Of a stretch of DNA of 59,546 nt, positions 2,080-53,599 are shown in pieces. A program made the translations under genes and the position numbers. Every line of letters begins with the position of its first letter. Positions within the stretch are counted from its first letter, which is position 1. The stretch is from the IMG/VR virus record IMGVR_UViG_3300042452_000420, positions 1 through 59,546 of that record, one strand, 5' to 3'. Under the pieces are notes generated by a model. The model did no database searches. It was not told where the DNA came from and was given only the letters and a program-made list of their open reading frames with translations. Source of the stretch: a virus (lineage: Duplodnaviria; Caudoviricetes).

Positions 2080-5000
2080 TGCAGCTCGGCGCTCGCACCA
2101 CCGGGTCCGTCGTCAGCGTGTTCGTCACTACTGGCGGGACGCAGTACTCCGAGCCTCCCGTCGTGACGTTCGCGGGCAACGCCGCTGGGGTTGCGCACCT
2201 TAGATCCACTAGGGTGCAGACACTCGTCATTACCAACGGAGGAACAGGGTACACACAGAGCCCTGCCGTCTCCATTTCCCCCGTGTCCACGCAGGCGACT
2301 GTTTCTTCTCTGACGGCAGGCACGGACTCCACGATCCTGACGTTGTCCACTGCCGCCGCCACGACGTTCTCCCGCATCCAGGCCGGAACCTTCGGCGCAA
2401 CGATCTCGTCGTTCTCCAACGCAACGCAGGTAGTCGTCGGCACAACATCGTTCACCACGGGCGCCGCCACGCTGTACTCCTCTGGAACCGGCGCAGCCGC
2501 GACAGCCTTTGCCTACACGGGCCCGCTTCGGCCGATTTCGTTTTTCAAAGGCCGATTCAACGACGCCTACGGCGTGGATGGCATGGGGCGTGGATTTCGG
2601 TGGAACGGCACCGACGCGGCCGTTGAGAAGATCGGAATAGAGAAGCCTGCCGTTGGGCCAAAGGTATCCATCTCCAATACCTCCGCCAGCGGATTCTTGG
2701 AATCTGTGCAGCTTGTGCAGGGTGGTGCTGGATATTTTTCGCCGCCCACGGTCACGATTACCGGCGGCACGCCAGCCCGTCCCGCCACGGCTCGCGCGGT
2801 GGTTTCAAACGGCCGCGTGACTTCGGTGCTGGTCACAAACCGTGGGTCCGGCTACCAGACAACGCCCACTATCTCGTTTTCTGGCGGCATAGGATCCGGC
2901 GCCACGTTTGGCGTTACCGCTTCCGGGAAAGTGCTCCAGGTCAACGTCCTGAATTCGGGCCGTGGATACACCACCTCCACCGCCTGCACTGCCAGCAAGG
3001 CGACATACGTCTTCCATGCCGTGCGTCACGGCCTGCTGGCCGGAAGCACGTTTTCGTTCTCTTCGATTTCCGGTCCTTCGGCCGTCGCGACAATTTCGGC
3101 GTTCACCGCAAGCACTACCGGCGGTACGGTGACGTTTTCCACAACGCAGGCAAGCACATGGCAACGGGTCGCGCTGCCGACGCGCTCTGCCAACATCGTC
3201 TCGTTCTCCAACGCCACCCAAGCGTTCATCGACGTTCCGACATTCGGGCTTGGCGGCGCCACGGTCTACGCCGACCCTGGCCTGACCACGGGTGTTGAAT
3301 ACTACGCCGTGAAAGTTGGGGGGAATACATTCACCGCCGCGACAGAAACGGCGGGCTCAACCGACATTCTGACAAACAGCATCGCGTCGGCCGTCATCCG
3401 GATCCCGCCGCCGCGCATTGAGTTCGCGACAAACGGCGGGCTGGCGGATGCTTCCGCCGCGATTGTCATTGATAGCGCTGGCGGAGTCGGAAACGCTGTC
3501 GTCTTAGCGTCTGGCACGGGGCTCACAACGTCTTCGGTTGCTGCCACCGTAGTCGGCGGCGCCGGAACTGGTGCGCAGTTGCTGGTCGTCCCAGAATACT
3601 CCGTCTCTGGCGCGACCGTCGTCAATGGCGGAAGCAATTTTTTTACCGCCCCCGTCCTTACGTTTCGCGCAGCCACCAACGATCCGACCGGGTTTGGCGC
3701 CGCGGCGACTGTGAGCGTCAATTCCGCGGGGGCCATCTCTGGCGTATCCATGGTTTCCGGAGGCCGATACGCCGCCCCGCCGACAGCGCTCATTCTCAAC
3801 ACGGAGGCCAAGGCCCAGGCGACTATCGCGCAATCGCTCCAAGGGAAATACCAGTGCGCGATCCGTTACATCGATGACACGCCCCGCACTGATAACGGCC
3901 CCATTCCGTCGTCCATCTCGGAGTTGGTGGAGGTAGACGTGTCCTCGCCGCGGGAGTCGCTGACATGGTCGTTCACGCACTACGGCCTAGACGACCGTGT
4001 ACACGGGATGGAACTGTGGCGCTCGTCCGCCGACCAGTCGGTAGCCCTGTATCGCGTGGCCACCATCCTGCGGTCGGATCCGGCGTTTACCGGAACCTAC
4101 GTGGACACGTTTGCTGACCCAGAACTCCAGGACCAGAAGCGGGCCGACTTTGCAGTCCTCCCCATCATCCTGCCGTCCGGTCAGGTGAACGCCCGGCGCT
4201 TCGGTGTCGCGCCCGGAGAGTTTGCCGTGGCAGCCATGTTCCAAGATCGCGCATGGTTTGCCGTGGACACAAGCGGCGAGCGGCCCAATTCACTCCTGTA
4301 CTCTGAGGTTGACGAGCCAGAGAGCGTCCCGCCAGAGAATGAACTGGTTCTCCAGGAGAACACGCAAGAGCCCGACAAGATCGTCGGCCTGATTCCGCTG
4401 GGCTCCCAGTTGCTGGTGGTCCAGTCGTCGCACATGTACGCCCTGTCGTACGTGGCACAGCCCGTGATCGATGCCTCCATGATCTTGGTGGCCTATCGCG
4501 GCATGCTCAATCCGCAGTGCGGCGATGTCCTTTCGGGCGTTGCGGTTTTGGCGGACAGCTACGGCATCTACTCGTTCGACGGCTCTAACGCAGAAGCCAT
4601 TTCCGTGGCCATCGACAACTACTGGCGCGACAACATCATTGATTTCTCAAAGTCGTCGCAGTTCCACATGCGCGCCGACTCCGCGACGATGACCGTGCGG
4701 TTCTTCTACTGCCGATCCACAGACTCCGCTCCGGTGCGTGCGTTGTGTTACTGCATCGCCACAAAGGCATGGTGGGAGGAGACTTATCCGGTCGCCGTTA
4801 CCGCTTCATGCCATAGCGTTGTCGGATCCAAGTCGGCGGTCCTCACTGCCACGCAGGCCGGATCCTTCCTGAAGCAATCTGGCCTCACGGATTCCGGGGC
4901 TGCCATCCAGTACAAGTTCCGCACCGGAAACCTGGAAATCGTCAACGAGCCGACGCGCGCAGTGTCGTTGCTGTACAAGCCAACGAACACCACCTCTGCG

Positions 5001-16046: not shown

Positions 16047-16895
16047 ATGAGCAGTAAGGCTAGGAAAGTGGTGGGGATGAGTCACAGCGAATACCTCGCT
16101 GAAAAAGATCACGACACCCGGTCGCTCCTTGTTTCGGTGATGCGTTTCGGTGGGGCTGCCCAGCACTGGATTGACCAGGGGCACAGCATGTTCGGCGGCA
16201 ACAGTGCCACCAAGCTGGGTACCAAATTTGATACCGCGATCATGGCCATCGCCTCCGGAAAGATCGTGGAGGAGGTCATCGTCACGCCGCCGGCCGCGGT
16301 GCTGGATGCCGCCGGACGCAGATCGGGCGGGAAGTACAAGGCGTGGTCAGGGACGCTCGCTTCTTGGCAGATCGAATGCAACGAGGAAGAGGCGTTCGTT
16401 CTGCGGACGATGGTTGAGCACACGCTGGACAACCCAGCCGCCCGCGCGTTGATTGACAACACCACCGAAACGCAACTGTCGGTGTTCGGTGAGATCAATG
16501 GCCATCCCGTGAAGTGCCGGCCGGACGGCTGCACTGCGGACCTCTGGTGGGATTTGAAGTCTACCAGCGCCCAGTGGGATCGGCTGTACGCGAGCGTGAT
16601 GGACTACGGCTACGGCGAACAAGAGTGGTTGTACCGAGAGTTGGCCATGCAAGTCGGATGGCCGCACTTCCGGATGCCATTCATCTTCACGCAGACCATG
16701 GCGCCGTACGCCTGCCATGTGTTCTATCTGCCGGTTGATTGGGTGGAGGAGGCGGGGCAGCGGTTGCTCCGCGTCATGGAGGAGGTTCGCCTGCGGCGTT
16801 CGACGGGGGACTACTTCCCTGTCGATCACGGCGAGATCACGGAACTGACCATCCCGCAGTGGGCGGTTCGCAAGTCAGAGGAGGTGGTGGCATGA
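16047..16895 (+). CDS. RecE-like PD-(D/E)XK exonuclease (DUF3799-like)
   Basis: KCRPDG...WDLKST...YGYGEQ motifs; GGAGG SD; next to an annealing protein. Confidence 0.85.
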   Translation: MSSKARKVVGMSHSEYLAEKDHDTRSLLVSVMRFGGAAQHWIDQGHSMFGGNSATKLGTKFDTAIMAIASGKIVEEVIVTPPAAVLDAAGRRSGGKYKAWSGTLASWQIECNEEEAFVLRTMVEHTLDNPAARALIDNTTETQLSVFGEINGHPVKCRPDGCTADLWWDLKSTSAQWDRLYASVMDYGYGEQEWLYRELAMQVGWPHFRMPFIFTQTMAPYACHVFYLPVDWVEEAGQRLLRVMEEVRLRRSTGDYFPVDHGEITELTIPQWAVRKSEEVVA

Positions 16896-17996: not shown

Positions 17997-18581
17997 ATGG
18001 ACGCACGCGACTACCAACAGTTCGTCATTGAAGAGAACCTGAAGGCCATGGACGAAGGCGTGACGGCCACGCTCAACGGCCTGTTCACGGGCGCAGGCAA
18101 GACGGTGATCTTTTGCCTGCTCGCCGCACGGATCGCGGGCCGGACGCTCATCATCTGCCCACTCCGTGAACTGGTCTGGCAGACCATCGACAAGGTTCAA
18201 CAGGTCACCAATCTCTATCCCGAGATTGAGATGGCCGACTACCACGCGGACGAGGACTACGCCGCCAAGGTAATCGTCGCGAGCAAGCAGACGCTGCTTA
18301 GTCGGCGTGGCGGAGAACCGCGCTACAAGCGCTTCCGCGATTTCCAATTGGTGATCGTTGACGAGGCGCACCTGATGACCAGCGCGCCGGTGGTGCAGAT
18401 GTTGCGCTACTTCCAGCACGACGGAGCAATGATCGCTGGGTTTACTGCGACACCATTCCGCATGGACGGACGGGCATTGATGAGGAGGAATCCATGGAAT
18501 TCTACGAACGACAAGTCTGCAACTACGACATCCAGTGGGCCATCGCACACGGATGGGCCGTCCCTCCGCTCTGCAAGATAG
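17997..18581 (+). CDS. SF2 (DEAH) helicase, N-terminal ATPase domain
   Basis: TGAGKT, VIVDEAH, GFTATPFRMD. Confidence 0.85.
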   Translation: MDARDYQQFVIEENLKAMDEGVTATLNGLFTGAGKTVIFCLLAARIAGRTLIICPLRELVWQTIDKVQQVTNLYPEIEMADYHADEDYAAKVIVASKQTLLSRRGGEPRYKRFRDFQLVIVDEAHLMTSAPVVQMLRYFQHDGAMIAGFTATPFRMDGRALMRRNPWNSTNDKSATTTSSGPSHTDGPSLRSAR

Positions 18582-19522
18582 CGGGAGTTCAGTCAATGGA
18601 TCTCTCCGGCATTCATCTGAGCGGCGGTGACTTTGTGCAGAAGGAACTGCAGAACGCGATGAACAAAGAGGCGACCAAGCAAAAGATTTGTCTCATCACC
18701 GTGGAGGAGATGGAGGGTCCGACCGTCCTGTTCACCGCGGGCGTGGATGCCGCCAAGGCGTGCGCCCATTACCTCACCCACAACTACGGAGTGCCCGCCG
18801 TTTATGTCCACGGAAAGCAAGACGAAGAGGAGCGCAAGGAGGCCCTCGCTGCCTTTAAAGGTGGGCAGGCGAAGGTTCTGTGCAACTGCATGGTCGTGGC
18901 TATCGGATTCGATTTCCCGCCGACCCAGACGCTGATCATGGGCAGGCCGACGAAGTCTCTTGGCTTCGCCCTTCAATGCTGGGGGCGCGCGTTCCGCCCG
19001 CTTCCTGGCGACGTTGATTTCCGTGGCAGCACAGCGGAGTCCCGCAAGGCCGCAATCGCAGCCAGCAAAAAGCCGTACGCCAAGATCGTTGACTGCACCC
19101 CCTCCTCGCAGGATCACACGCTCGTCACCGGGATCGACATGTTTGTCACCGATGACGAGGTGAAGGAATACGTTCGCAAAGCGGCGGAGAAGAAGCCGCT
19201 GACTCCGGAAGAGATCGCCGCGCTCGCAGAAGCACAGGCCGCAAAGATCGCAGCCGCCAAGGCCATCGAAGAGATGCGGAAGAACACGCAGGGCCGGGCG
19301 ACCGGCAGCGTGGTTGGCCGCGAGATCGAACTGCGTGGCGGCAAGCGCTGTGTCGGCACGTACTTCAATCCCATCAAAGGCAAGTACGCCGGCCAGAAGC
19401 TGAATCAATTGCCGGACCACTACGTCGCCTGGGCGGCCGAGCAAATCCGCACGGGCTGGATCAGATCGATGTTTCGCAGAGAGCAGGAGCGCAGAAATGC
19501 CGAACGATTTTCTCACCGATGA
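18494..19522 (+). CDS. SF2 helicase C-terminal domain, -1 frame relative to the N-terminal part
   Basis: YVHGK, VLCNC..AIGFDFP, QCWGRAFR; C-terminal GKYAG...LPDHY.W module; GAGGAGG SD. Confidence 0.8.
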   Translation: MEFYERQVCNYDIQWAIAHGWAVPPLCKIAGVQSMDLSGIHLSGGDFVQKELQNAMNKEATKQKICLITVEEMEGPTVLFTAGVDAAKACAHYLTHNYGVPAVYVHGKQDEEERKEALAAFKGGQAKVLCNCMVVAIGFDFPPTQTLIMGRPTKSLGFALQCWGRAFRPLPGDVDFRGSTAESRKAAIAASKKPYAKIVDCTPSSQDHTLVTGIDMFVTDDEVKEYVRKAAEKKPLTPEEIAALAEAQAAKIAAAKAIEEMRKNTQGRATGSVVGREIELRGGKRCVGTYFNPIKGKYAGQKLNQLPDHYVAWAAEQIRTGWIRSMFRREQERRNAERFSHR

Positions 19523-20097: not shown

Positions 20098-20686
20098 TGG
20101 CCACAAGGCCGAGCAGGCTTGGGTGGACAAAGCCCGCCTGCTTGGCCTGTCGGTCGCACACGGCAAGAAGGTCGTGATCCGCCGGCACAACAAGTTGACG
20201 GATCACTGCGGCAATCCCGACGCCGCGTTGTTGATGACGGTTGAGATCAAAGAGAGAAGCCTGACGTTCACCAGCCCGGATGATTTTCCATATGCCACGG
20301 TGTTTGTGGATGATCTCCGGGGCCTTGGTAAAGAAACCCTGCGCCCTTTTGCTTACGTGTTCGTTTCGCGGACCACTGGTCACTGGGTGTGGCTGACGCC
20401 GTTAGACAGGGATGAGTCATGGCAGGAAACAATTGTGAAGGACAACACCCGCGGGCATGAGATGGGCATGTTGGTGGCGCCGAAGTCCCACCTTCGGCCG
20501 GCGGAACAACTACAGCAGTATCTAGTACCACACGGGCAACTACATGGAATCGACGGAGACACCTCCCTGTTCGTCGCAGGCGGAGGGCAAGTGGAGAACC
20601 GAGAACGAGCGTCTGACGAAGACAATCCTTTTGTTACAGGCGGAGATCGAAAGACTACGCCGAAAACTAGAAAGCACTTGGGGTGA
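20066..20686 (+). CDS. PD-(D/E)XK nuclease-like protein
   Basis: GHKAEQ...PD...VEIK pattern. Confidence 0.6.
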   Translation: MPRSFRNSLSNGHKAEQAWVDKARLLGLSVAHGKKVVIRRHNKLTDHCGNPDAALLMTVEIKERSLTFTSPDDFPYATVFVDDLRGLGKETLRPFAYVFVSRTTGHWVWLTPLDRDESWQETIVKDNTRGHEMGMLVAPKSHLRPAEQLQQYLVPHGQLHGIDGDTSLFVAGGGQVENRERASDEDNPFVTGGDRKTTPKTRKHLG

Positions 20687-20775
20687 AGCATGAATACACC
20701 CGGCCCAATGGAGTTCTTTATCGGGCTTGTCTTTGCCACGGCGATGCTGCTGTACGGCCTTTCGATGGGTGAAGA

Positions 20776-20919
20776 ATGAGCGGAACGCTAATCATTGTGA
20801 CCGGCGTTATCTATGCCGTAGTATCCGTGGATCAGTTTGCCCACGGTAACAACGGCATGGGTATCGCCTACTTGGGCTACGGATTTGCGAACATTGGCCT
20901 ATGGATGCTGGCTAAATGA
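20776..20919 (+). CDS. 47-aa membrane protein (below ORF-track cutoff)
   Basis: MSGTLIIVTGVIYAVVSVDQFAHGNNGMGIAYLGYGFANIGLWMLAK; two hydrophobic segments; ATGA-coupled on both sides. Confidence 0.65.
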   Translation: MSGTLIIVTGVIYAVVSVDQFAHGNNGMGIAYLGYGFANIGLWMLAK

Positions 20920-21524
20920 ACGCTGATATACCGTATATGAGATGCTGGGTGCGGCGGGAGTTCGTCTCGCAAGACACTGGTCTGGAAGAGGCTTACGCTT
21001 TTGCCATCCAGTCGCACCCCGGGCGTTGCCTCGCCTTCCACGTGATGTTGAAGTCCGGCGCCCATTACCGCAACGTGCCGATCCATGCGCTCTGCCTGGA
21101 TCAGGACGCTCCGCCCATCGACTTGGGAGATGCCCAGCTTTGGGACTGCTTCACGTTCCATCCCCAGGTACACGTATACGGCTACCTCCGGGAGCATGAG
21201 GCAGTCTGTTATCTCCGGTCAAAGAAGCTGGCCGGCGTTTACCTGTTCACCGTGGACTGGTTGCCAGACCACGACGGGCCCGGCATGACCCACCTTGTGG
21301 AACAGAACAAGTGCGGGCATGTCATGCGACTGGATGATGGCAACCTGTGCTGCCTGCCCACCAACCGGATCGCATGGCGAGATTCATATTTTATAGGAAA
21401 CTCCCCAGCCCCCGAGACGGAGCGTTACAAGGTGCAAGGCGAGGTGTATCAGGCGGAGTCTGGGGAGTGGGATGTGAGCCAGTCAGAGAAGTACTACTAC
21501 ACCCCCGTAAAGCGTACCATTTGA
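20916..21524 (+). CDS. Conserved phage hypothetical protein
   Basis: 202 aa; NADIPY..C.VR.EF, QLWDCF, YLFTVDW, PTNRI. Confidence 0.75.
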   Translation: MNADIPYMRCWVRREFVSQDTGLEEAYAFAIQSHPGRCLAFHVMLKSGAHYRNVPIHALCLDQDAPPIDLGDAQLWDCFTFHPQVHVYGYLREHEAVCYLRSKKLAGVYLFTVDWLPDHDGPGMTHLVEQNKCGHVMRLDDGNLCCLPTNRIAWRDSYFIGNSPAPETERYKVQGEVYQAESGEWDVSQSEKYYYTPVKRTI

Positions 21525-21626
21525 GCCTGGACGGCGGTTCACCAATTCCGTTTCTGTATCTGGCCGTGGCGGACATTGACTAGCAACGGCGGACGGCGTG
21601 TTCCGCCGGAGTCTTATGGGCCGTGG

Positions 21627-21824
21627 ATGATGAACGGAAAGCATAAAGATCGCATGCGGGCCCCAGAGGTTGCCGCACTGCTTGGCATCAGCGAGCGAAC
21701 GCTATCGCGATGGGTGAACTCTGGGAGGTTCCCGAGGCCGTCTGCGTTTGGGCGTGTTCGACACTGGGATTCCCTTGTTGTGCATGCCTGGATTGAGGCT
21801 GCGGAAGGACGGGTGCCTGCGTGA
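21627..21824 (+). CDS. AlpA/Xis-like HTH protein (candidate excisionase)
   Basis: EVAALLGISERTLSRWVNSGRFPRP...RHW; start uncertain (21576-21654). Confidence 0.8.
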   Translation: MMNGKHKDRMRAPEVAALLGISERTLSRWVNSGRFPRPSAFGRVRHWDSLVVHAWIEAAEGRVPA

Positions 21825-22321
21825 TACGAGCAGCCACTACTTCGCAATCTCACCCAGGAACTAGCGCGTGGGCACTCTCTGTAACCAATGCGCAAAAGAA
21901 AAGACAGGCTCGTCCGCAACGCACCTATCGCGGACGATACGTGTACGCTTGGTTTAATGAGGAAAGCAAGCTGCCGTTTTACATCGGCAGGGGAACTGGC
22001 AGCCGAGCGTGGGACCGCCACCAAGACGGCGACGGGCGCGCCATGTTCTGCCAAACGACCCGCGTTTCGACCCCCGGATTTCGCGTTGAGGTAATACGCG
22101 ACAACCTCACGGAAGAGGGCGCTGCGCTGGCCGAAGCATGCCTTATTTCGTTCGTTTCGCAGTGCGGAGGGACTCTTACAAATCAGGTTGGTGGCATGTC
22201 CCGCCAAGAGCGCCCGCCACTGGAATTGGACGCCGGTCTTTTAGGGCACCCTGAAAGCGATGATTGCCCCCAGGAGCCGCTATCCGATCCAGAAACGCAA
22301 ATCGACACGCCAAAAAATTAG
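21821..22321 (+). CDS. GIY-YIG-type endonuclease
   Basis: YVYAW...PFYIGRGTGSRAWDRH...EACLI...LTN. Confidence 0.75.
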   Translation: MIRAATTSQSHPGTSAWALSVTNAQKKRQARPQRTYRGRYVYAWFNEESKLPFYIGRGTGSRAWDRHQDGDGRAMFCQTTRVSTPGFRVEVIRDNLTEEGAALAEACLISFVSQCGGTLTNQVGGMSRQERPPLELDAGLLGHPESDDCPQEPLSDPETQIDTPKN

Positions 22322-22350
22322 GGCCTTTAAAACGCAAGCCAGGGGCTCTC

Positions 22351-22989
22351 ATGGGCATGCAAACGATAGCCGTCTTCCTCTCGGTTTTTGCAGAGGCATC
22401 CGCCGTGGGTGCCGATCTGGAGTACGTGCCTGGAATCTGGGCACCGCCTGCCTCTTATCCGGCCACTCTGCGGGATATCGCCGGCCGGCTTCCCGAGCGG
22501 ACGGACGCCCGAGATGCCGACCTGATTACCTACGCCCATGAAGGGAACCACTTCCTCTGCCGGGGTAAGCCTGGATACCACGGGGTGTACGTGGGGAACG
22601 GGCTGAGAATCTTCCTGCCCACCCCACCGCTCGTCACGGAGCGGGTGTTACTGGCCGTGCCCGAACACAAGCGCGGGACGATCTTCCAGACCTACATGAA
22701 CCAGGGCAGGACAGAGTACTGGGCTGCGCAGCCGCTGATGATCCTGGACGAATGGGCTGCGTACATCGCTGGATCGAAAACACGGGCGGAAAGTAAGGGT
22801 ATTCAGAGACGGGAAACAACCGTACACTGTGCGACATTCGCCGGATACGCTGCGGTTCTGTACGCCATGGCAAAGGACTGTCCAGGTTATCCGGCTGACG
22901 AACTCAGGACATTCTGTTTGTGGCAACTGGATCGCTGCAGGGAAGCCATCCCTGACTGGGATCAGTTGTCGGATGCGAAGTTTTACTAG
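22351..22989 (+). CDS. Hypothetical protein with HExxH (possible metallopeptidase)
   Basis: TYAHEGNH plus downstream LDEW; hydrophobic N-terminus. Confidence 0.55.
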   Translation: MGMQTIAVFLSVFAEASAVGADLEYVPGIWAPPASYPATLRDIAGRLPERTDARDADLITYAHEGNHFLCRGKPGYHGVYVGNGLRIFLPTPPLVTERVLLAVPEHKRGTIFQTYMNQGRTEYWAAQPLMILDEWAAYIAGSKTRAESKGIQRRETTVHCATFAGYAAVLYAMAKDCPGYPADELRTFCLWQLDRCREAIPDWDQLSDAKFY

Positions 22990-23032
22990 GCACTGGATGC
23001 CGACACGGTGTACCACCCACCGACCGCCAAGG

Positions 23033-23278
23033 CGCAAGCACAGCGACAAGGGTGAGCAAAACGCCGCAAGGCGTGGGGTATTGCCGGGTGTGCTGACGAC
23101 TCCGACCCGGACTGAGACTTGCCCCCGGAGCGAAGGATGTAAAGGCCGTGGACTCCGTAATCAACTACGCACGCCCGGTCCATGCAGCGCGGCTCCGCCG
23201 TTTGACATGCCCGCATACTGGCTCTTCGGAGTCGGTATGCGCGCTCACCACCGTTTGACGGTTTGAGTATCGCTTGCG
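23033..23278 (+). ncRNA. Candidate multi-stem structured RNA, family not recognised
   Basis: Intergenic; GCAA and cUUCGg capped hairpins, nested stems, long-range closing helices; G-U pairs favour the + strand. Confidence 0.6.
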
Positions 23279-23302
23279 TATACGCCCGTCCACCGTTACA
23301 AT
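23274..23302 (+). promoter_or_regulatory. Sigma70-like promoter
   Basis: TTGCGT-17-TACAAT upstream of the HNH-like gene. Confidence 0.6.
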
Positions 23303-23338
23303 CCCGGCCTACCTTGGAGGGTAGATCGGCTATGCAGG

Positions 23339-23866
23339 ATGTACGCGGAAGCGACGAAGGTCTGCAGGGACTGCGGCAAGGAGTTGCCATTAAGCGCGTT
23401 CTACCTTGCCCCCCGTGGCGTACAAGGGGTTTCGTCTTACTGCAAACCTTGCGCCTGCAAGCGATCCTCCGCTAGCAGGATGACTCGTCGCGAACACTGC
23501 ATTGCTTATAGCCGGGCGTGGCATTTACGGCGGCGAGCGGAGCGACCATCCGAGGCGTTGTTTTCAGCAACGAAGCTGGGGGCTGCCAAGCGAAATATTT
23601 CTTTTGCGCTCACTCCGCAATGGTTCGCACGCAAGTTTGCTGCCAACAGGTGCGAATTAACTGGATTGGAATTTGACTATGGGAAACGGTCGCTGAGACT
23701 CCCATCCCCGGACAGGATCGACAGTAGCAAAGGGTACACCGAAGACAACACAAGGCTCATTTGCTGGGGATTAAATGCAATGAAAATGCACCACAGCGAA
23801 GAAGATTTCATTAAGTTCCTAAAAGACGCACACTCGGGCCTGAATGAACAAGCAAGAACGCATTGA
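23339..23866 (+). CDS. HNH-like endonuclease with N-terminal Zn ribbon
   Basis: CRDC/CKPC; SPDRIDSSKGYTEDN...N.MK. Confidence 0.75.
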   Translation: MYAEATKVCRDCGKELPLSAFYLAPRGVQGVSSYCKPCACKRSSASRMTRREHCIAYSRAWHLRRRAERPSEALFSATKLGAAKRNISFALTPQWFARKFAANRCELTGLEFDYGKRSLRLPSPDRIDSSKGYTEDNTRLICWGLNAMKMHHSEEDFIKFLKDAHSGLNEQARTH

Positions 23867-24242
23867 TCTCCAGGCGTGGCTAGAAGAACACAGGTCATGC
23901 GCGGTGTGCTGGTGGCCGGAGTCCGATGGCCGACGGTGGCTGGAAGTACATCACTTGGTCGGAGGCGCCGGACGCAAGCACGACATCCGGCAGTACGTGC
24001 GTTTGTGCAACAACTGTCACACGGTGCTTCACTCAGGCACTTTTCTTACTGGACTCCCAGACCTGAACAAGGGTATACTTCTTGGCGTGAAGAAAGAATG
24101 TGACCCTTCCAACTACGATCCCGTGTTCCTCGCCTCGCTGAAACACAAGAAGCACCTGGGCTACGAACCGGAAGAGTTACCAGAAGCGTACAAGGAACAG
24201 CGCATCAGAAACGTAGGGCCATGGACGAGCCGAGAACCCTGA
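23844..24242 (+). CDS. HNH endonuclease
   Basis: CAVC...LEVHHL...LCNNCH. Confidence 0.75.
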   Translation: MNKQERIDLQAWLEEHRSCAVCWWPESDGRRWLEVHHLVGGAGRKHDIRQYVRLCNNCHTVLHSGTFLTGLPDLNKGILLGVKKECDPSNYDPVFLASLKHKKHLGYEPEELPEAYKEQRIRNVGPWTSREP

Positions 24243-24601
24243 GTTGTGAGGTCATCAGGGTCACCCGTCCGAACACCCTGCTTATCCGTTCGATGTCAGA
24301 GATCATGCAGAGCTACGCTTCAACCTACCTGTGTCTCGCCGGAGTCCGCTGCAGGAAGTCGGCCATGCAGGACATCATCGACTGGCTGGAAATTCACGGC
24401 GACTTCGGCCGCTACGAACTCCTGCTCTTTGACTGGATGCGTGACTCCTACGGCCGGCTCTTGGGGAATGTCCTGGACCGCAAGACCGGCGAGGCCCTAA
24501 CCACCTACCTCATCCAGCGGGGCTCCGCCGTGGAGCGCCCGAACCACCTGGAGGAAGTTATGCAAGACCTCCTCTCCGCCCCGGAGCCCGACGAGCTATG
24601 A
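24221..24601 (+). CDS. Thermonuclease (SNase)-fold protein, possibly inactive
   Basis: LAGV, DSYGRLLG, LIQRG.A; the DGDT motif is replaced by RPNT. Confidence 0.5.
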   Translation: MDEPRTLSCEVIRVTRPNTLLIRSMSEIMQSYASTYLCLAGVRCRKSAMQDIIDWLEIHGDFGRYELLLFDWMRDSYGRLLGNVLDRKTGEALTTYLIQRGSAVERPNHLEEVMQDLLSAPEPDEL

Positions 24602-24840
24602 CAAGCGGCGGCTACTGGAAGACAACCAACTCCCAGATCACGGCCCACTGGCCATTGCAGGGAGGCTCGCGCGACTTCGGAATGTGGTCGCGGATCGGTG
24701 TGTGGATCAGTCAGAACGAGAAGGTTCTGAACAAGCGGACGCAGGACGAGGTCTGCAGGCTGGTGAGCGAACAATTCCCGGAGCTGGTGGAGGTGGAATC
24801 CAAGGACTACAGCGGCCGGCTGGCGAGGTGGCGCAAATGA
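24598..24840 (+). CDS. Hypothetical protein
   Basis: ATGA coupling at both ends. Confidence 0.6.
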   Translation: MTSGGYWKTTNSQITAHWPLQGGSRDFGMWSRIGVWISQNEKVLNKRTQDEVCRLVSEQFPELVEVESKDYSGRLARWRK

Positions 24841-25247
24841 TCCACGGCCGCCAGAAGGGAGCCCGCGGAGAACGCAGCGCCGCCCAGGCGTGGGCAGAAG
24901 CTCTCGGCCTAGACCCGGCCGCCTGTCGCAGAGGCCAGCAATTTGCGGGTGGAACAGATTCCCCGGATGTTGTTCAGCCGTTGCGGGACATCCACCTAGA
25001 GGTGAAGCGCGTGGAGGCTGGCAACCCGTACCGCTGGTTGGAGCAGGCGGTGCGTGATGCTGGTGGGAAAATCCCACTCGTCCTCCACAGGCGGAACCGC
25101 AAGGACTGGATCGCGATAGTGAGGCTAGACGATGTCCAACGACTCGCGGAGACGATTGCTGCGCAAACTAAAACGCTGGGCGGAGGAGCGGTTTCCGGTC
25201 CTGTTCCCGGTGAGGGTGTACCTCCGGCCAAAGAACCGAATGTCTGA
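24837..25247 (+). CDS. Holliday junction resolvase-like PD-(D/E)XK nuclease
   Basis: RQKGARGER...SPDV...HLEVKR...W.EQA. Confidence 0.8.
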   Translation: MIHGRQKGARGERSAAQAWAEALGLDPAACRRGQQFAGGTDSPDVVQPLRDIHLEVKRVEAGNPYRWLEQAVRDAGGKIPLVLHRRNRKDWIAIVRLDDVQRLAETIAAQTKTLGGGAVSGPVPGEGVPPAKEPNV

Positions 25248-25476
25248 GATGCTGGGCTACTTCTGCATGGACGACGATTGTGAGCGAGGAACGATTGGAA
25301 TCCTGGATAGTTTGAACCACGGCGAAATCATTGACACCTTTTTTGAGGAGTGGGCCCACGCGCGGTGTGCCCATCTCCTAGACACGGAGGACCACGACGA
25401 TGACCCCGACCACCACCCTACGTTCTGGAGTGAGTACGGAAGACTCGTCAAAGCCGGTCGCGGTGTGGCATGGTGA
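25132..25476 (+). CDS. Hypothetical protein (EEWAH, degenerate metallopeptidase-like motif)
   Basis: Overlaps resolvase end; start 25132 or 25240. Confidence 0.55.
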   Translation: MSNDSRRRLLRKLKRWAEERFPVLFPVRVYLRPKNRMSEMLGYFCMDDDCERGTIGILDSLNHGEIIDTFFEEWAHARCAHLLDTEDHDDDPDHHPTFWSEYGRLVKAGRGVAW

Positions 25477-25759
25477 CGATCCCTACGCGGAAGTCACCGA
25501 CCTCATCCATGACCTCATGCTGCGAAAGAGCGGTTACTACGGCAACCCAGATGACGGTCCACTCTGCAATGCCTTGGGGGTGGAGGCTGACGGCATCGAA
25601 CCGTGGCGCTACCAACTGGCCAGAATTGGCGAGAAATGCAGGCGTCTGCGAGGCGAAGCCCAGCATGACGAGCATTTACTTAGAGAGACTCTGATCGACA
25701 TCGCCGGCCATGCGGTGGTCGCCCTGGCCTGCTTAAACCACAAAGCGAGAAACCCATGA
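25400..25759 (+). CDS. Nucleotide-modification-associated domain protein (DUF1599/Nmad1-like)
   Basis: KSGYYG...RIGEK.RRL...ETLIDIAG.AV; true start may be GTG 25463. Confidence 0.65.
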   Translation: MTPTTTLRSGVSTEDSSKPVAVWHGDDPYAEVTDLIHDLMLRKSGYYGNPDDGPLCNALGVEADGIEPWRYQLARIGEKCRRLRGEAQHDEHLLRETLIDIAGHAVVALACLNHKARNP

Positions 25760-51259: not shown

Positions 51260-51929
51260 GTCTTGCACGCACTGCGGGAAGTCCTACCCGCTCACCAAGC
51301 AGTACTGGCACGTTAGTAAGGGAGAGTTTCATTCGCGGTGCAGGAAGTGCCGCAACAAAAAGCAGAAGGACGGCCGCGTCATCCGCTCGCAGAAGAAGTT
51401 GGCGGAGATCGAACGCGGGGCAGTAGACACGTTCATCGCCGTGTCGCGGGTTGGCGGGACGAACATCCCCCACTCAGCGGAACTGCTGGAAGTGGCGATG
51501 AAATACTTCGGCGGTGTCGAAGGCTTCATCACCGCGTTTATGAAGCAGTACTACGACGCCCCGGCCGGGGGTGCGTTCCGAACCAAGCAACTGGACTCCA
51601 TCCTCAAACTCATCACCGCCAACACCGCCATGGGCGGAGCCAAGAAGCCGCTGGAGTTGATGACTGAAGAAGAGCTGGAAGCGCAGTACCGGCGGGACGT
51701 TCTCGCCGCCGCCATGAGTATCAAAGTCAACGGACAGCCCGCAAGGCTGGAAGATCATGCAAACGTGCGAGATATGCCGGTGGTGGACAACCTACAAGCC
51801 GGAGGCGTTGGTGGGGGAATGCCGGAGATTCCCGCCGCAGTCGCGGAACGGCAAGTGGGAGAATCCGCTGACGGACAAAAGTCACTGGTGCGCGGAGTGG
51901 CATCACCTAACGATGTGCCAGCGCAATGA
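51246..51929 (+). CDS. Probable terminase small subunit with N-terminal Zn ribbon
   Basis: Directly upstream of TerL (ATGA overlap); CTHC/CRKC; MTEEEL tail. Confidence 0.55.
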   Translation: MAEAKSCTHCGKSYPLTKQYWHVSKGEFHSRCRKCRNKKQKDGRVIRSQKKLAEIERGAVDTFIAVSRVGGTNIPHSAELLEVAMKYFGGVEGFITAFMKQYYDAPAGGAFRTKQLDSILKLITANTAMGGAKKPLELMTEEELEAQYRRDVLAAAMSIKVNGQPARLEDHANVRDMPVVDNLQAGGVGGGMPEIPAAVAERQVGESADGQKSLVRGVASPNDVPAQ

Positions 51930-53599
51930 AAAAGCATCCCAAGCTCAGCGCCCCGATTCCACAGCCTGACGCGCCCGTAGTCACGCAACACCAGATCCAG
52001 CAGATGCGGGAGGTGCAGGCCGAACTGGCCTCCCGCCGGCTGGAGGCCCTCCGCCTGTACAGACCCATGCCCCACCAAGAAGAGTTCCACAAGTCGATGG
52101 TCAGTGAACGGATCGTCTTGGGTGGTAACCGTGGCGGCAAGTCATTGGCTGTGGCGGTGGAGGCGGCCCGCGCAGCGACCGGCCAAGACCCCTACGGCAA
52201 GTATCCGCTGGAAGGCGGGAACATTGCGATAGTCGGCCGGAACTGGCCCCACATCGGTCTTGTGATCTACCCGATCCTCTTTAAGGCCGGCGCGTTCCGG
52301 ATCATCAAAGACGAGGAGACAGGCGAGTGGAGGAGCATCAGGCAGGGCGATGACAAGTCGAAGTCCAAGCCTGCGCCGCCCCTCATCCCGCCCAGGCTCA
52401 TCAAAGACATGTCTTGGGTGCTGAAGAACGCCGGCTATTTAAACAAAGTGGAGCTGACGAACGGCTGGACGATCTGGTGCTTCTCGTCAGAGGGAGAGCC
52501 CCCGCAAGGCTATCAGGCCGATCTTATTTGGCTGGACGAAGACTTAAACAACGAGCGGTGGGTGGGCGAATGTCAGGCTCGCCTCGCGGATCGCAAAGGC
52601 CGATTTGTGTGGGCGGCCATGCCACATTCGCGGAATGATGCACTTCTGGGATTGTGCGAACGTGCCGACAAGGAGATTGAAACAAACAACCCCAAGCCCC
52701 TCATCCAAAAGTTCACGTTCCGGTTCCTGGACAACCAGTTCATTGATGACGAAGAGAAACGGAAGAACATCGAACGCTGGTCTGCCTTGGGGCAAGAGGA
52801 ATTGAAGATGCGTGCGGAGGGTGAGTTCACCACCGAATCCACGCTCATGTACCCGACGTTCAATCCCGCAGTTCACATCCTGCGCCGGGAGGAATTGCCG
52901 GACGGTCAGGTGCCTGCAGACTGGACCCGCTACGCCGCGATTGACCCCGGCCACGTAGTCATGGCGACACTGTTCGCAGCAGTTCCGCCGGACGAACGGT
53001 TTATTCTCATCTACGACGAACTGTATCTCCGGCAGTGCAACGCCATGATTTGGGGCGAGCGGTTCTACGGGAAGGTACAGGAGCAATCGATCTACGCCGC
53101 GATCATGGACATGCACGGCGGCACGCTCCGCGATCTCGGATCGGGACGATTGCCCCATGAGCTGTATTCGGAGGAACTGAAGAAGCGTGGCTACAGGTTC
53201 TCCATCGGCGGCAGCAGCTTCATCCCAGGGTCCGACGACATCCCCGCCAGAACGGCATTGGTACGCCAGATGCTGCATGTGCGGGGCGACGGGACAACTA
53301 AGCTGAAGATTTTGGACGGAGCCTGCCCCAACCTCCTCAGAGAAATAAAACGCTACCGCAAGAAAACCACCACCGTAAACGGACAGGTCTACGTGACCGA
53401 CGAACCGCAGACGCGGGGTGAGGTCCATGCCGTGCAGACGTTGGAATACCTTGCGGCCCATGAGCCCCGATACCACAAACCACCTCGCCGCCCTGGCCCG
53501 GAGCCATGGTGGGTGAAGTACTTGGCAGAGCGTGAAAAGCGCCTGCGCAAAGACGATGACGGAGTTACCTACCTTGCCCCCAAAGGAGCATTACGATGA
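51926..53599 (+). CDS. terL: Terminase large subunit
   Basis: PHQEEFH, GGNRGGKS (Walker A), IWLDE (Walker B), AIDPG nuclease, YDELY, CPNL.REI..Y. Confidence 0.92.
   Translation: MKKHPKLSAPIPQPDAPVVTQHQIQQMREVQAELASRRLEALRLYRPMPHQEEFHKSMVSERIVLGGNRGGKSLAVAVEAARAATGQDPYGKYPLEGGNIAIVGRNWPHIGLVIYPILFKAGAFRIIKDEETGEWRSIRQGDDKSKSKPAPPLIPPRLIKDMSWVLKNAGYLNKVELTNGWTIWCFSSEGEPPQGYQADLIWLDEDLNNERWVGECQARLADRKGRFVWAAMPHSRNDALLGLCERADKEIETNNPKPLIQKFTFRFLDNQFIDDEEKRKNIERWSALGQEELKMRAEGEFTTESTLMYPTFNPAVHILRREELPDGQVPADWTRYAAIDPGHVVMATLFAAVPPDERFILIYDELYLRQCNAMIWGERFYGKVQEQSIYAAIMDMHGGTLRDLGSGRLPHELYSEELKKRGYRFSIGGSSFIPGSDDIPARTALVRQMLHVRGDGTTKLKILDGACPNLLREIKRYRKKTTTVNGQVYVTDEPQTRGEVHAVQTLEYLAAHEPRYHKPPRRPGPEPWWVKYLAEREKRLRKDDDGVTYLAPKGALR

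What the first reader, a model, noticed from the sequence alone, without database searches (positions are those of the whole stretch)
23033..23278. About 245-nt multi-branched structured RNA candidate in the middle operon
Seen by hand: closing helices CGCAAGC/GCTTGCG (23033-39/23272-78) and GGTGAGC/GCTCACC (23051-57/23243-49); GNRA hairpin ACGCC-GCAA-GGCGT (23061-74); GGGGTA/TGCCCC (23075-80/23120-25) enclosing CCGGGT/ACCCGG; CGGAGC/GCTCCG (23126-31/23192-97) enclosing TGGAC/GTCCA; and a 13-bp cUUCGg hairpin (23212-41). The stems are mutually compatible, and the tetraloops and G-U pairs point to a + strand RNA. It is the largest gap in a coupled operon and lies directly upstream of HNH genes. 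I cannot match it to a known family. Hypotheses: novel phage ncRNA or ribozyme, an RNA partner of the HNH nuclease, or a primer RNA for replication.
Basis: partly seen in the sequence, partly recalled or inferred. Interest (0 to 1): 0.78.

Follow-up and report, generated by a model that had tools for sequence, protein, structure and literature searches.

The report
New pseudoknotted RNA in lake phages
The gap upstream of the HNH nuclease genes encodes a conserved, intricately folded RNA of about 280-330 nt, shared by a group of uncultivated lake phages, that matches no described RNA family and whose job is still unknown.

Summary
The finding is real but needs redrawing. The whole gap 22989-23259 (+ strand), not only 23033-23278, is a conserved element. 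I found it in 20 distinct sequences from related uncultivated freshwater phage contigs, always upstream of an HNH nuclease module.

Compensatory changes support ten helices. On the 3' half, 87.6% of cells pair against 75.6% in shuffles, with 65 double-change cells against 20 (0/500). H1 and H2 pass on a plain MAFFT alignment.

Two do not covary (CGGAGC/GCTCCG, TGGAC/GTCCA); an H-type pseudoknot replaces them. The outermost helix has no visible counterpart in relatives; I ran no count on it.

Rfam 15 gives nothing for the window or 12 relatives. Folding energy alone is weak (whole element z = -0.69).

One feature is unexplained. Two 12-17-nt direct repeats flank the long hairpin and change together between lineages. 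The invariant GGAGUCG has two rival partners.

Function is not shown. My best guess is a cis-acting RNA switch or insulator for the nuclease genes (about 0.35). A free-standing RNA or ribozyme is nearly as likely.

The parts
22989..23001 (+). H1 hairpin GGCA-CUGGA-UGCC; its first G is the last base of the upstream gene's TAG
   Evidence: Second pair covaries: G-C 13, C-G 4, A-U 3 of 20 on MAFFT alignment A7.
23006..23022 (+). H2: CGGUG 23006-10 with CACCG 23018-22; most relatives carry a conserved insert CUGAAGAUCGG in the loop
   Evidence: First pair C-G 12, U-A 3, U-G 1; fourth pair C-G 13, U-A 5, U-G 1. In insert-bearing members a second copy (AUCGGC) can pair with the same 3' strand.
23025..23045 (+). 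H3: CGC 23025-27 with GCG 23043-45, enclosing GC-GCAA-GC 23032-39
   Evidence: Relatives have UGC/GCA or GCUG/CAGC with a GAAA loop, by eye. RNAfold draws it in the window, L103, L106, L107 and L034. No formal count.
23051..23057 (+). PL 5' strand GGUGAGC (long-range closing helix, pairs with 23243-49)
   Evidence: A helix of 5 or more pairs from the homologous 5' segment in 15 of 20, with different sequences: GGGGGCA/UGCCCCC, GCGGGC/GCCCGC, GGGUAGGC/GCCUACCU, AUGGG/CCCAU. It is not the top-ranked helix in 4 of these, and the 5' strand in L057 is of doubtful homology.
23061..23074 (+). H4 hairpin ACGCC-GCAA-GGCGU
   Evidence: In relatives a longer stem at this place (CUGGUG/CACCGG, CGGAUG/CAUCCG, CUGGAG/CUCCAG, CCAAUGG/CCAUUGG, CUGCGAG/CUCGCAG), often capped by GNRA. 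Seen by eye, no formal count.
23075..23125 (+). P5: GGGG 23075-78 with CCCC 23122-25, enclosing P6 (and the variable hairpin P7 in relatives)
   Evidence: 4 of 4 pairs have changes on both sides; 73.8% of cells pair. Three sequences (L103 type) pair one column off in the alignment.
23084..23110 (+). P6: CCGGGU 23084-89 with ACCCGG 23105-10; conserved 15-nt loop GUGCUGACGACUCCG 23090-104
   Evidence: 92.5% paired; 4 of 6 pairs have double changes, for example A-U 9, C-G 6, G-C 4, U-A 1. The loop letters GACU..C are invariant in 20 of 20.
23126..23157 (+). Pseudoknot stem S1: CGGAG 23126-30 with CUCCG 23153-57
   Evidence: 93.0% paired; 4 of 5 pairs have double changes. This stem was not part of the covariance model used for the alignment.
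23144..23176 (+). Pseudoknot stem S2: GGCCGUG 23144-50 with CACGCCC 23170-76 (one C-C mismatch); conserved joining strands CGAAGGAUGNAAA and UNANCAACNA
   Evidence: 74.8% paired; 4 of 7 pairs have double changes. Other forms are GGUGUUA/UAACACC, GGAAGCG/CGUUUCC, GAUGAA/UUCAUC.
23195..23206 (+). R1, direct repeat CCGCCGUUUGAC
   Evidence: 11 of 12 letters identical to R2. Both copies change together between lineages.
23212..23241 (+). P9, 13-bp hairpin with UUCG loop; holds the invariant GGAGUCG 23228-34
   Evidence: A hairpin of -17 to -30 kcal/mol at this place in 20 of 20, with different distal stems. GGAGUC is invariant.
23097..23103 (+). P6-loop strand CGACUCC, complementary to GGAGUCG 23228-34 (candidate long-range pseudoknot PK2, rival of the base of P9)
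   Evidence: 100% of cells with letters pair. 6 pairs never vary; the seventh is C-G 15, U-A 3, with 2 gaps. The 5' strand of P9 carries the same change.
23243..23249 (+). PL 3' strand GCUCACC
   Evidence: See PL 5' strand.
23248..23259 (+). R2, direct repeat CCACCGUUUGAC
   Evidence: By my reading of frames, R2 ends 0-12 nt before the next gene's start codon in L104, L103, L106, L107, L035, L076, L079 and possibly L034.
23274..23324 (+). Not part of the RNA fold: promoter-like TTGCGT-N17-TACAAT (23274-302), then hairpin CUACC 23309-13 / GGUAG 23320-24 over the ribosome-binding site of the endonuclease VII-like gene (start 23339)
   Evidence: A GTAYACT-like box at the same place in 11 of 20, plus TACAGT in L094. 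The consensus scan did not list it, as it matches only 8 of 12.

Best explanation
The stretch 22989-23259 encodes, on the plus strand, a member of a new family of structured RNAs of about 280-330 nt, confined so far to a clade of uncultivated freshwater tailed phages.

Shown: a fold of about ten helices (H1, H2, H3, long-range PL, H4, P5, P6, an H-type pseudoknot S1/S2, and hairpin P9), with conserved joining strands.

Inferred: it is transcribed with the upstream HExxH gene, since H1 begins at that gene's stop codon. It then acts in cis as a conformational switch or insulator that sets how much upstream transcription or translation reaches the nuclease genes behind it.

Proposed working: the invariant GGAGUCG pairs either with the 5' strand of P9 (hairpin closed) or with the identical CGACUCC in the P6 loop (hairpin base open). 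This exchange would alter the exposure of the two single-stranded repeats R1 and R2. R2 lies on or just before the ribosome-binding region of the next gene in the members that lack an inserted promoter. R1 would be a decoy copy, or a second site for the same lineage-specific binder.

Odds: I put about 0.85 on 'real functional structured RNA' and about 0.35 on this particular mode of action.
For: - Conservation and synteny: 20 distinct homologues. A CWWPE-type HNH gene lies 96-879 nt behind GGAGTC in 19 of 20.
- Covariation, 3' half: 87.6% of cells pair against 75.6 +/- 0.9 in shuffles; 65 double-change cells against 20.0 +/- 3.6; 0 of 500 shuffles reach either value; slid partners give 37-51%.
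- Covariation, H1 and H2, on an alignment not fitted to any structure: 93.6% against 83.6%; 15 double-change cells against 4.2.
- Strand: G-U 14 against A-C 4 cells. GNRA and UUCG loops read on the plus strand.
- Switch-like duplicates: the P6 loop and the P9 5' strand are both complementary to GGAGUCG, and all three change together in L077, L004, L097 and L079.
- R1 and R2 agree in 10-11 of 12 letters within a genome, against 6-9 across lineages.
- R2 abuts the next start codon in 7-8 of 20.
Against: - In 11-12 of 20, the window included, a promoter-like module lies between R2 and the next start codon, usually followed by an extra endonuclease gene. The element and both repeats are conserved all the same. 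This argues against a purely translational role.
- No sequence complementary to R1/R2 turned up at a consistent place: not inside the element, within 2.5 kb on either side, or in variable hairpin P7, except in the L103 type and L057.
- PK2 rests on one covarying pair, and it competes with a very stable hairpin.
- The alignment used was fitted to a model that held P5, P6, S2 and P9.
- Folding energy is no better than shuffles for most members.
- Nothing shows that the RNA is made.
Confidence: 0.35

Rival explanations
1. A free-standing functional RNA, cut out of the operon transcript, that works in trans or on itself. It could be a ribozyme, a scaffold for a phage protein such as the small HNH nuclease or the HExxH protein, or an 'ornate' RNA of the GOLLD/ROOL sort. 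R1 and R2 would be two sites for one lineage-specific partner, or two processing sites.
For: Size and complexity: about ten helices, one well-supported pseudoknot and a candidate second, and invariant letters in loops and joining strands. It stays conserved wherever a promoter-like module or extra gene separates it from the next gene. In L189 it keeps its place before the HNH gene although the upstream gene is different. R1 and R2 co-evolve without any partner inside the RNA.
Against: No promoter or terminator of its own was found. No RNA data exist. The neighbouring proteins show no RNA-binding family. It is absent from some close relatives that keep both flanking gene types.
Confidence: 0.33
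2. The RNA fold is real, but R1 and R2 (and a weaker third copy at 23290-302 over the -10-like box) act at the DNA level. They would be operators for a sequence-specific phage protein, for instance a homing endonuclease repressing its own module, as recalled for I-TevI.
For: Repeats that change in concert between lineages are what co-evolving protein sites look like. The window and the L002 type have a third similar copy over the -10-like box. The locus is a hot spot for endonuclease gene insertion.
Against: Members without the promoter-like module keep R1 and R2. There are only two copies, and their spacing of 53-61 bp is not phased. No DNA-binding protein is identified.
Confidence: 0.12
3. 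A replication origin or primer RNA. The structured transcript or the DNA hairpins, together with iteron-like repeats, would start DNA synthesis.
For: The element lies in the replication and recombination gene block: helicase 18494-19522, exonuclease VIII-like 16047-16895. It has iteron-like direct repeats. Cumulative GC skew turns over at about 24-29 kb.
Against: The pattern of compensatory changes with G-U pairs, GNRA loops and a pseudoknot is that of a folded RNA, not of an unwinding element. There is no A+T-rich stretch (GC 0.57-0.59 locally). Only two repeats are present. Some close relatives lack the element.
Confidence: 0.07
4. No function: a G+C-rich spacer or decayed coding sequence whose apparent structure comes from chance and shared ancestry.
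For: Energy z-scores are mostly unremarkable. The 20 sequences are related, with an effective number of 8.6, which inflates shuffle tests. The random ORFs 22829-23266 (+) and 22986-23390 (-) cross it.
Against: Slid-partner controls keep relatedness yet fall to 37-51% paired, against 87.6%. Double changes occur in 17 of 29 pairs. Indels are not multiples of three and no reading frame is kept between homologues. The crossing ORFs have no Pfam or PHROG match.
Confidence: 0.04

Closest known systems
Large 'ornate' RNAs of unknown function found by comparative genomics, often in phages (GOLLD, ROOL). I saw only the search listing and the start of the abstract of bioRxiv 10.1101/2024.12.08.627333; the rest is recalled.
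   Same: Phage-borne, long for a bacterial non-coding RNA, many helices with conserved loops, found only through covariation, no known function.
   Different: No match to their Rfam models. It is shorter (about 280-330 nt). It lies before an HNH nuclease module rather than near tRNA genes (no tRNA in the window). It carries the paired co-evolving repeats.
HEARO / omega-RNA of IscB (HNH endonuclease-associated RNA and ORF; recalled, in Rfam)
   Same: A structured RNA of a few hundred nt, with a pseudoknot, encoded just upstream of a gene with an HNH domain. It has a lineage-variable segment inside a conserved scaffold.
   Different: No hit to the Rfam model even at E up to 10. The HNH proteins here are 132-175 aa and show only PF01844 or endonuclease VII-like PHROGs, not the RuvC-bearing protein of about 400-500 aa (recalled). 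No transposon ends were seen.
Leader RNA switches that hide a ribosome-binding site, including phage T4 late genes and I-TevI, where read-through transcripts sequester the site and a late promoter inside the structure frees it (recalled)
   Same: Alternative pairings of duplicated strands. The position is before nuclease genes. A promoter-like box is followed by a hairpin over the ribosome-binding site at 23297-23324.
   Different: Far larger and more elaborate than those hairpins. No ligand or anti-R strand is identified. The element persists where it is cut off from the start codon.
Translational operator of T4 gene 32 mRNA: a pseudoknot followed by repeated single-stranded motifs bound cooperatively by the protein (recalled)
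   Same: An H-type pseudoknot upstream of repeated single-stranded sequence elements near a start codon in a phage mRNA.
   Different: There are only two repeats, they flank a hairpin, and no cognate protein is known. The downstream gene differs between members.

Membership tests
Any Rfam 15 family (4227 models) | Covariance-model score at or above the family's gathering score | tested here: not met
   0 matches in the window and 0 in 12 homologous loci, 90,458 bases. At E up to 10 on 22900-23450 there were only two chance-level hits: CRISPR-DR23 at 19.3 bits against a threshold of 45, and PhotoRC-I at 12.2 against 45.
HEARO / IscB omega-RNA | Match to the HEARO model | tested here: not met
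   Not listed at the gathering threshold or at E up to 10.
HEARO / IscB omega-RNA | Adjacent IscB-size protein with RuvC and HNH domains (sizes recalled) | tested here: not met
   The downstream ORFs are 175 aa (phrog_1035, endonuclease VII) and 132 aa (PF01844 only).
tmRNA / tRNA-like | tRNA-like domain and tag reading frame detectable by ARAGORN | tested here: not met
   0 genes in the window. No reading frame is kept between homologues.
Hammerhead ribozyme | Invariant core CUGANGA ... GAAA around three stems (recalled) | tested here: not met
   CUGACGA or CUGAUGA sits in the P6 loop in most members, but it is CUUACGA in L103, L106 and L107 and CUGGUGA in L077, L004 and L097. It lies inside a hairpin loop, and no Rfam hammerhead model hit.
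Group I intron | Match to the Rfam group I intron model | tested here: not met
   No hit at the gathering threshold or at E up to 10.
Group I intron | Insertion inside a gene whose two halves flank it | tested here: not met
   The flanks are separate complete genes. The upstream ORF ends at its own stop codon 22987-89.
Translational bypass of the T4 gene 60 kind | Open reading frame entering a take-off codon, with a matched landing codon about 50 nt on, a stop after take-off and a hairpin (recalled) | tested here: not met
   Matched repeats 53-61 nt apart, a stop triplet and a hairpin are all present. But the upstream gene stops about 205 nt earlier, and the frame into R1 differs between homologues by single-base indels.
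nut-type antitermination site (boxA plus boxB) | boxA consensus next to a short hairpin (consensus recalled, not from a call) | tested here: inconclusive
   R in the main lineage resembles the recalled boxA in about 9 of 11 letters. In other lineages R is unrelated. No model was available to score it.
Intrinsic terminator or sigma-70 promoter inside the element | Consensus match | tested here: not met
   The scan of 20500-25500 lists none within 22989-23338.

The most novel reading that the evidence does not exclude
The RNA is the nucleic-acid half of a new kind of small RNA-dependent nuclease module. The lineage-variable repeat R1, held in the conserved scaffold, would be identical to the DNA sequence R2 at the element's own 3' border. 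It would act as a guide or address. Through it the 132-aa CWWPE-type HNH protein (alone or with the HExxH protein) would recognise that DNA site in this or in rival phage genomes, for homing, exclusion, or nick-primed replication. This would account for the concerted change of R1 and R2 and the near-constant link to the HNH gene.
Probability: 0.06. Interest if true: 0.92.

Novelty: new member of a known kind. Interest (0 to 1): 0.6.

Why it matters
It adds a well-supported RNA family of about 300 nt to the short list of elaborate phage RNAs without a known job. The family has one well-supported pseudoknot and a candidate second one, and it comes from viruses that have no cultured relatives.

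Three features make it a tractable case for asking what such RNAs do in phages:
- It is almost always linked to a small HNH nuclease gene.
- It sits in a site where extra endonuclease genes come and go.
- It has two pairs of duplicated strands, one of which co-evolves without a visible partner.

If the repeats turn out to address a protein or a DNA site, this would be a new way of coupling an RNA to a minimal nuclease. If it is a leader switch, it would be an unusually large one for controlling a selfish nuclease.

Tried and rejected
- Close or distant DNA relatives among 50,697 deposited phage genomes: none for 22990-23340. None for the large terminase by tblastn.
The same pattern in viral contigs also hit its limit and added only L189, plus L132 on the same contig as L085.
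- RNA evidence: no RNA holder was listed among 22 runs.
- Laying contigs of four DNA runs on 22900-23420 gave no joints. It showed a few strain differences: 22984 and 23004 at the 5' edge, five between 23267 and 23331 outside the fold, and indels at 23178 and 23190 from a relative's contig. This was uninformative.
- A partner for R1/R2: none inside the element. In the whole window there were 13 matches with up to 2 mismatches, against 12.7 expected. None lay at a consistent place within 2.5 kb. Variable hairpin P7 fits only in the L103 type (9 bp, with one compensatory change between L103 and L107) and in L057 (8 bp).
- The repeat as a genome-wide motif: CCGTTTRAC occurs 3 times against 0.88 expected; 7 of 100 shuffles reach 3.
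- A small conserved ORF or tag peptide ending at the stop triplet in R: the frames differ between homologues.
- The upstream HExxH protein as a clue: no Pfam, PHROG or PDB sequence match. The AlphaFold2 model is confident (pLDDT 90.6), but Foldseek against the PDB gave nothing at E <= 0.001. VIA-align gave at best Z 6.1, mostly helical repeats; two HExxH oxygenase domains scored Z 4.8 and 5.8. That is too weak to name a fold.
- Covariance model R1 found no further copies in 12 related loci that lack the element or carry a different spacer (L110, L112, L083, L086, L105, L109 and others).
- One literature search returned 18 papers holding 3 of 4 terms. From the titles and abstract starts of the 15 listed, none describes this element. 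No paper was read in full.
Full report
What the window is. The window is a complete 59,546-bp virus record with nearly all long ORFs on the plus strand. It holds a structural and packaging block: terminase 51926-53599, portal 53936-55948 and a head protein. It also holds a replication and recombination block: helicase 18494-19522 and an exonuclease VIII-like gene 16047-16895. It has no relatives among deposited phage genomes, either for the element or for the terminase. Parts of it recur in at least 20 lake and freshwater metagenome runs.

The finding lies in a 349-nt gap. Upstream is a 241-aa gene, 22264-22989. It carries an HExxH-type motif, YAHEGNHF, and has no Pfam or PHROG match. Downstream is an endonuclease VII-like gene, 23339-23866 (phrog_1035), followed by a 132-aa HNH gene, 23844-24242 (PF01844).

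The observation. The minimum-free-energy fold of 23033-23278 reproduces most of them: -104.2 kcal/mol, z = -2.12, with 4 of 200 dinucleotide shuffles as good. The minus strand gives z = -0.43. Energy is weak evidence in this 60% G+C genome. For the full element of nine representatives, with 30 shuffles each, the plus-strand z ranged from +0.59 to -3.20; the window gave -0.69.

Relatives. Protein-anchored and pattern scans of IMG/VR and JGI metagenomes, followed by iterated nhmmer, gave hits in 38 loci. I dropped duplicates, substrings and three truncated copies under 250 nt (L088, L092, L093). I added L189 from a later scan. That left 20 distinct sequences, with an effective number of 8.6.

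By eye, and by the repeat-identity matrix, they fall into about seven lineages:
- the window, L094, L189, L053, L104, L057, L085, L002, L003 and L101
- L034
- L035
- L103, L106 and L107
- L077, L004 and L097
- L079
- L076

No copy was recognised among 120 pattern hits from bacterial and archaeal genomes.

Synteny. The HExxH gene precedes the element in the members where I checked it. In 18 of 20 a TAG or TAA abuts hairpin H1. In L189 a different gene lies upstream, yet the element still sits before the HNH gene. A CWWPE-type HNH gene follows within 96-879 nt of the invariant GGAGTC in 19 of 20; L034 is the exception. Some close relatives lack the element altogether (L083/84 at that place, L086/87, L105, L109). 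L110 and L112 carry a different spacer of about 400 nt.

The fold. Reading the 20 sequences between fixed anchors gave this architecture, in window coordinates:
- H1: 22989-92 with 22998-23001
- H2: 23006-10 with 23018-22
- H3: 23025-27 with 23043-45, with an inner GC-GCAA-GC
- PL, a long-range helix: 23051-57 with 23243-49
- H4: 23061-74
- P5: 23075-78 with 23122-25, enclosing P6
- P6: 23084-89 with 23105-10, with a conserved 15-nt loop; relatives also have a variable hairpin P7 inside P5
- an H-type pseudoknot: S1 23126-30 with 23153-57, and S2 23144-50 with 23170-76
- repeat R1: 23195-206
- the long hairpin P9: 23212-41
- the 3' strand of PL, then repeat R2: 23248-59

Formal counts, 3' half. 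I built a covariance model that held P5, P6, P7, S2 and P9, and used it to align the 3' half (alignment A5). I counted P5, P6, S2, S1 and PK2 on it; S1 and PK2 were not in the model. The result was 87.6% of 573 cells paired against 75.6 +/- 0.9 in shuffles. 17 of 29 pairs had changes on both sides. 65 cells showed such changes against 20.0 +/- 3.6. The covariation score was 0.320 against 0.121. No shuffle in 500 reached the observed value for any of these four measures. Sliding the 3' partners by 1-3 columns dropped pairing to 37-51%. S1, which the model did not contain, is 93% paired, with 4 of 5 pairs doubly changed. Counts for P5, P6 and S2 lean toward the model's structure, because the alignment was fitted to it.

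Formal counts, 5' end. H1 and H2 were counted on a plain MAFFT alignment. They give 93.6% paired against 83.6%, and 15 double-change cells against 4.2 +/- 1.6 (0 of 500). Two or three rows are visibly misaligned and count as breaks.

Helices without a formal count. P9 is a hairpin of -17 to -30 kcal/mol in 20 of 20, with quite different distal stems. PL is present as a helix of 5 or more pairs from the homologous AAG-G-rich 5' segment in 15 of 20, with sequences as different as GGUGAGC/GCUCACC, GGGGGCA/UGCCCCC, GCGGGC/GCCCGC and GGGUAGGC/GCCUACCU. In L094, L079, L004 and L106 it is not the top-ranked helix, and L057's 5' strand is of doubtful homology. The other five either have no helix of 5 or more pairs (L035) or only one from a non-homologous segment (L103, L107, L097, L076). 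H3 and H4 rest on inspection and single-sequence folds only.

Strand. In P5, P6, S1 and S2 there are 14 G-U cells against 4 A-C cells. With the misaligned P9 included, the ratio is 45 to 30.

Five helices stand: PL, H4, P5, P6 and P9. The pair CGGAGC/GCTCCG with the enclosed TGGAC/GTCCA fails: 68.2% paired against 68.5% in shuffles, a covariation score of 0.078 against 0.113, and 498 of 500 shuffles at least as high. The pseudoknot replaces them. The outermost helix CGCAAGC/GCTTGCG has no counterpart that I could see. Its 5' half belongs to H3. Its 3' half lies in non-conserved sequence that overlaps a -35-like hexamer. I did not run a count on it.

Known families. Rfam 15 gives no match at the gathering threshold in the window or in 12 homologous loci. 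At E up to 10 there were only two chance-level hits. ARAGORN finds no tRNA or tmRNA. The loop word CUGACGA recalls the hammerhead core, but it is not kept in two lineages and sits in a hairpin loop. HEARO/omega-RNA, the known HNH-associated RNA, is excluded by model score and by the size and domains of the neighbouring proteins.

Unusual feature: the repeats. R1 and R2 lie 53-61 nt apart on either side of P9 and are single-stranded in the fold. Their 5' parts are position-specific (CCGCCG against CCACCG). Their 3' parts differ between lineages: UUUGAC, UUUAAC, CUUGAW, a GGUGGUAUGA form, a CUUGG..GCCUAC form and an ACCCGGAAUA form. Yet the two copies in one genome agree. Identity is 10-11 of 12 within a genome for the main family, L034, the L103 type, L079 and L004, against 6-9 across lineages. 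Only 0-4 of 300 shuffles do as well. The signal is weak in L035, L077, L097 and L076, where 22 to 135 of 300 shuffles match it. Most copies hold a stop triplet at the same spot, but no reading frame into it is conserved. I found no complementary partner.

Unusual feature: rival partners. The invariant GGAGUCG 23228-34 is complementary both to the 5' strand of P9 and to CGACUCC in the P6 loop. All three change together (C/G to U/A) in L077, L004, L097 and L079. This suggests strand exchange, though the count holds only one covarying pair for it. H2's 3' strand likewise has two possible 5' partners in insert-bearing members.

Relation to the next gene. By my reading of frames, R2 ends 0-12 nt before the start codon of the next gene in L104, L103, L106, L107, L035, L076, L079 and perhaps L034. 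In 11 of 20 (12 with L094's TACAGT), the window included, R2 is followed by 35-50 nt and a GTAYACT box; in most of these a hairpin over the ribosome-binding site comes next. In the window these are TTGCGT-N17-TACAAT at 23274-302 and CUACC/GGUAG at 23309-24. This looks like an internal promoter. In 11 of 20 an extra gene of about 450-530 nt, mostly the endonuclease VII-like zinc-finger type, sits before the HNH gene. That gene behaves like a free-standing homing endonuclease insertion. The consensus scan did not list the promoter, as it matches only 8 of 12.

Interpretation. It is a genuine, new family of structured RNA; I put this at about 0.85. Its action is not shown.

For a cis-acting switch or insulator of the nuclease module:
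- its fixed place before the HNH gene
- the likely co-transcription with the upstream gene
- the two sets of rival pairings
- the overlap of R2 with translation start regions in several lineages

Against it: the element persists, repeats included, where a promoter-like module cuts it off from the start codon. No anti-R strand exists either. That persistence, together with the complexity of the fold, makes a free-standing RNA nearly as likely, whether ribozyme, protein scaffold or 'ornate' RNA. A DNA-level role for the repeats, as operators or iterons, cannot be excluded. A replication origin or primer RNA is less likely, and chance is unlikely.

The upstream HExxH protein gave no clue. Its model is confident (pLDDT 90.6), with no convincing structural neighbour. 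No RNA run holds the stretch, and DNA contigs from four runs added nothing.

Verdict. It deserves experimental follow-up. The functional claims remain open.

Noticed in passing
window 23274-23324: TTGCGT-N17-TACAAT, then hairpin CUACC/GGUAG holding the Shine-Dalgarno region of the endonuclease VII-like gene. A GTAYACT box sits at the same place in 11 of 20 relatives. A transcript from this promoter would start in or near the hairpin's 5' arm. So read-through RNA could hide the ribosome site while promoter-derived RNA could not, as recalled for T4 late genes.
   Followed up: partly
window 23339-23866; L189, L104, L103, L035 for the empty site: The endonuclease VII-like zinc-finger gene (phrog_1035), or another gene of about 450-530 nt, lies between the RNA and the CWWPE-type HNH gene in 11 of 20 relatives. 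It is absent in 6 (L189, L104, L035, L103, L106, L107). It looks like a free-standing homing endonuclease that comes and goes at this site.
   Followed up: partly
window 22264-22989 (probable true start 22351): A conserved 208-241-aa protein with an HExxH motif. The AlphaFold2 model is confident (pLDDT 90.6). There is no Pfam, PHROG or PDB sequence match and no convincing structural neighbour: best Z 6.1, with HExxH oxygenase domains at Z 4.8-5.8. Possibly a new fold or family.
   Followed up: partly
L110 434-900 and L112 379-850: At the same locus these two relatives carry a different intergenic stretch of about 400 nt. It has a P9-like long hairpin (GGCGGCUAA...UUAGUCGCC) and a GCCGCAAGCGACAGGG stretch that recalls H3 of the window. 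Covariance model R1 does not hit it. It may be a distant second form of the RNA.
   Followed up: no
L103 3770-3790 with 3910-3925; the same in L106 and L107: In the L103 lineage the variable P7 region (GCCGAGUGG) is complementary to R2 (CCACUUGGC) over 9 bp, with a compensatory change in L107 (GCCAAGUGG/CCAUUUGGC). This is a lineage-specific long-range pairing not seen in the other lineages.
   Followed up: partly
window, whole: Cumulative GC skew rises to a broad maximum at about 24-29 kb and falls steeply from 31 to 39 kb, although long ORFs keep to the plus strand.
   Followed up: no
window 22829-23266 (+) and 22986-23390 (-): ORFs of 145 and 134 aa cross the element. Neither has a Pfam or PHROG match, and neither frame is kept in relatives. 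They are by-products of the high G+C content.
   Followed up: yes
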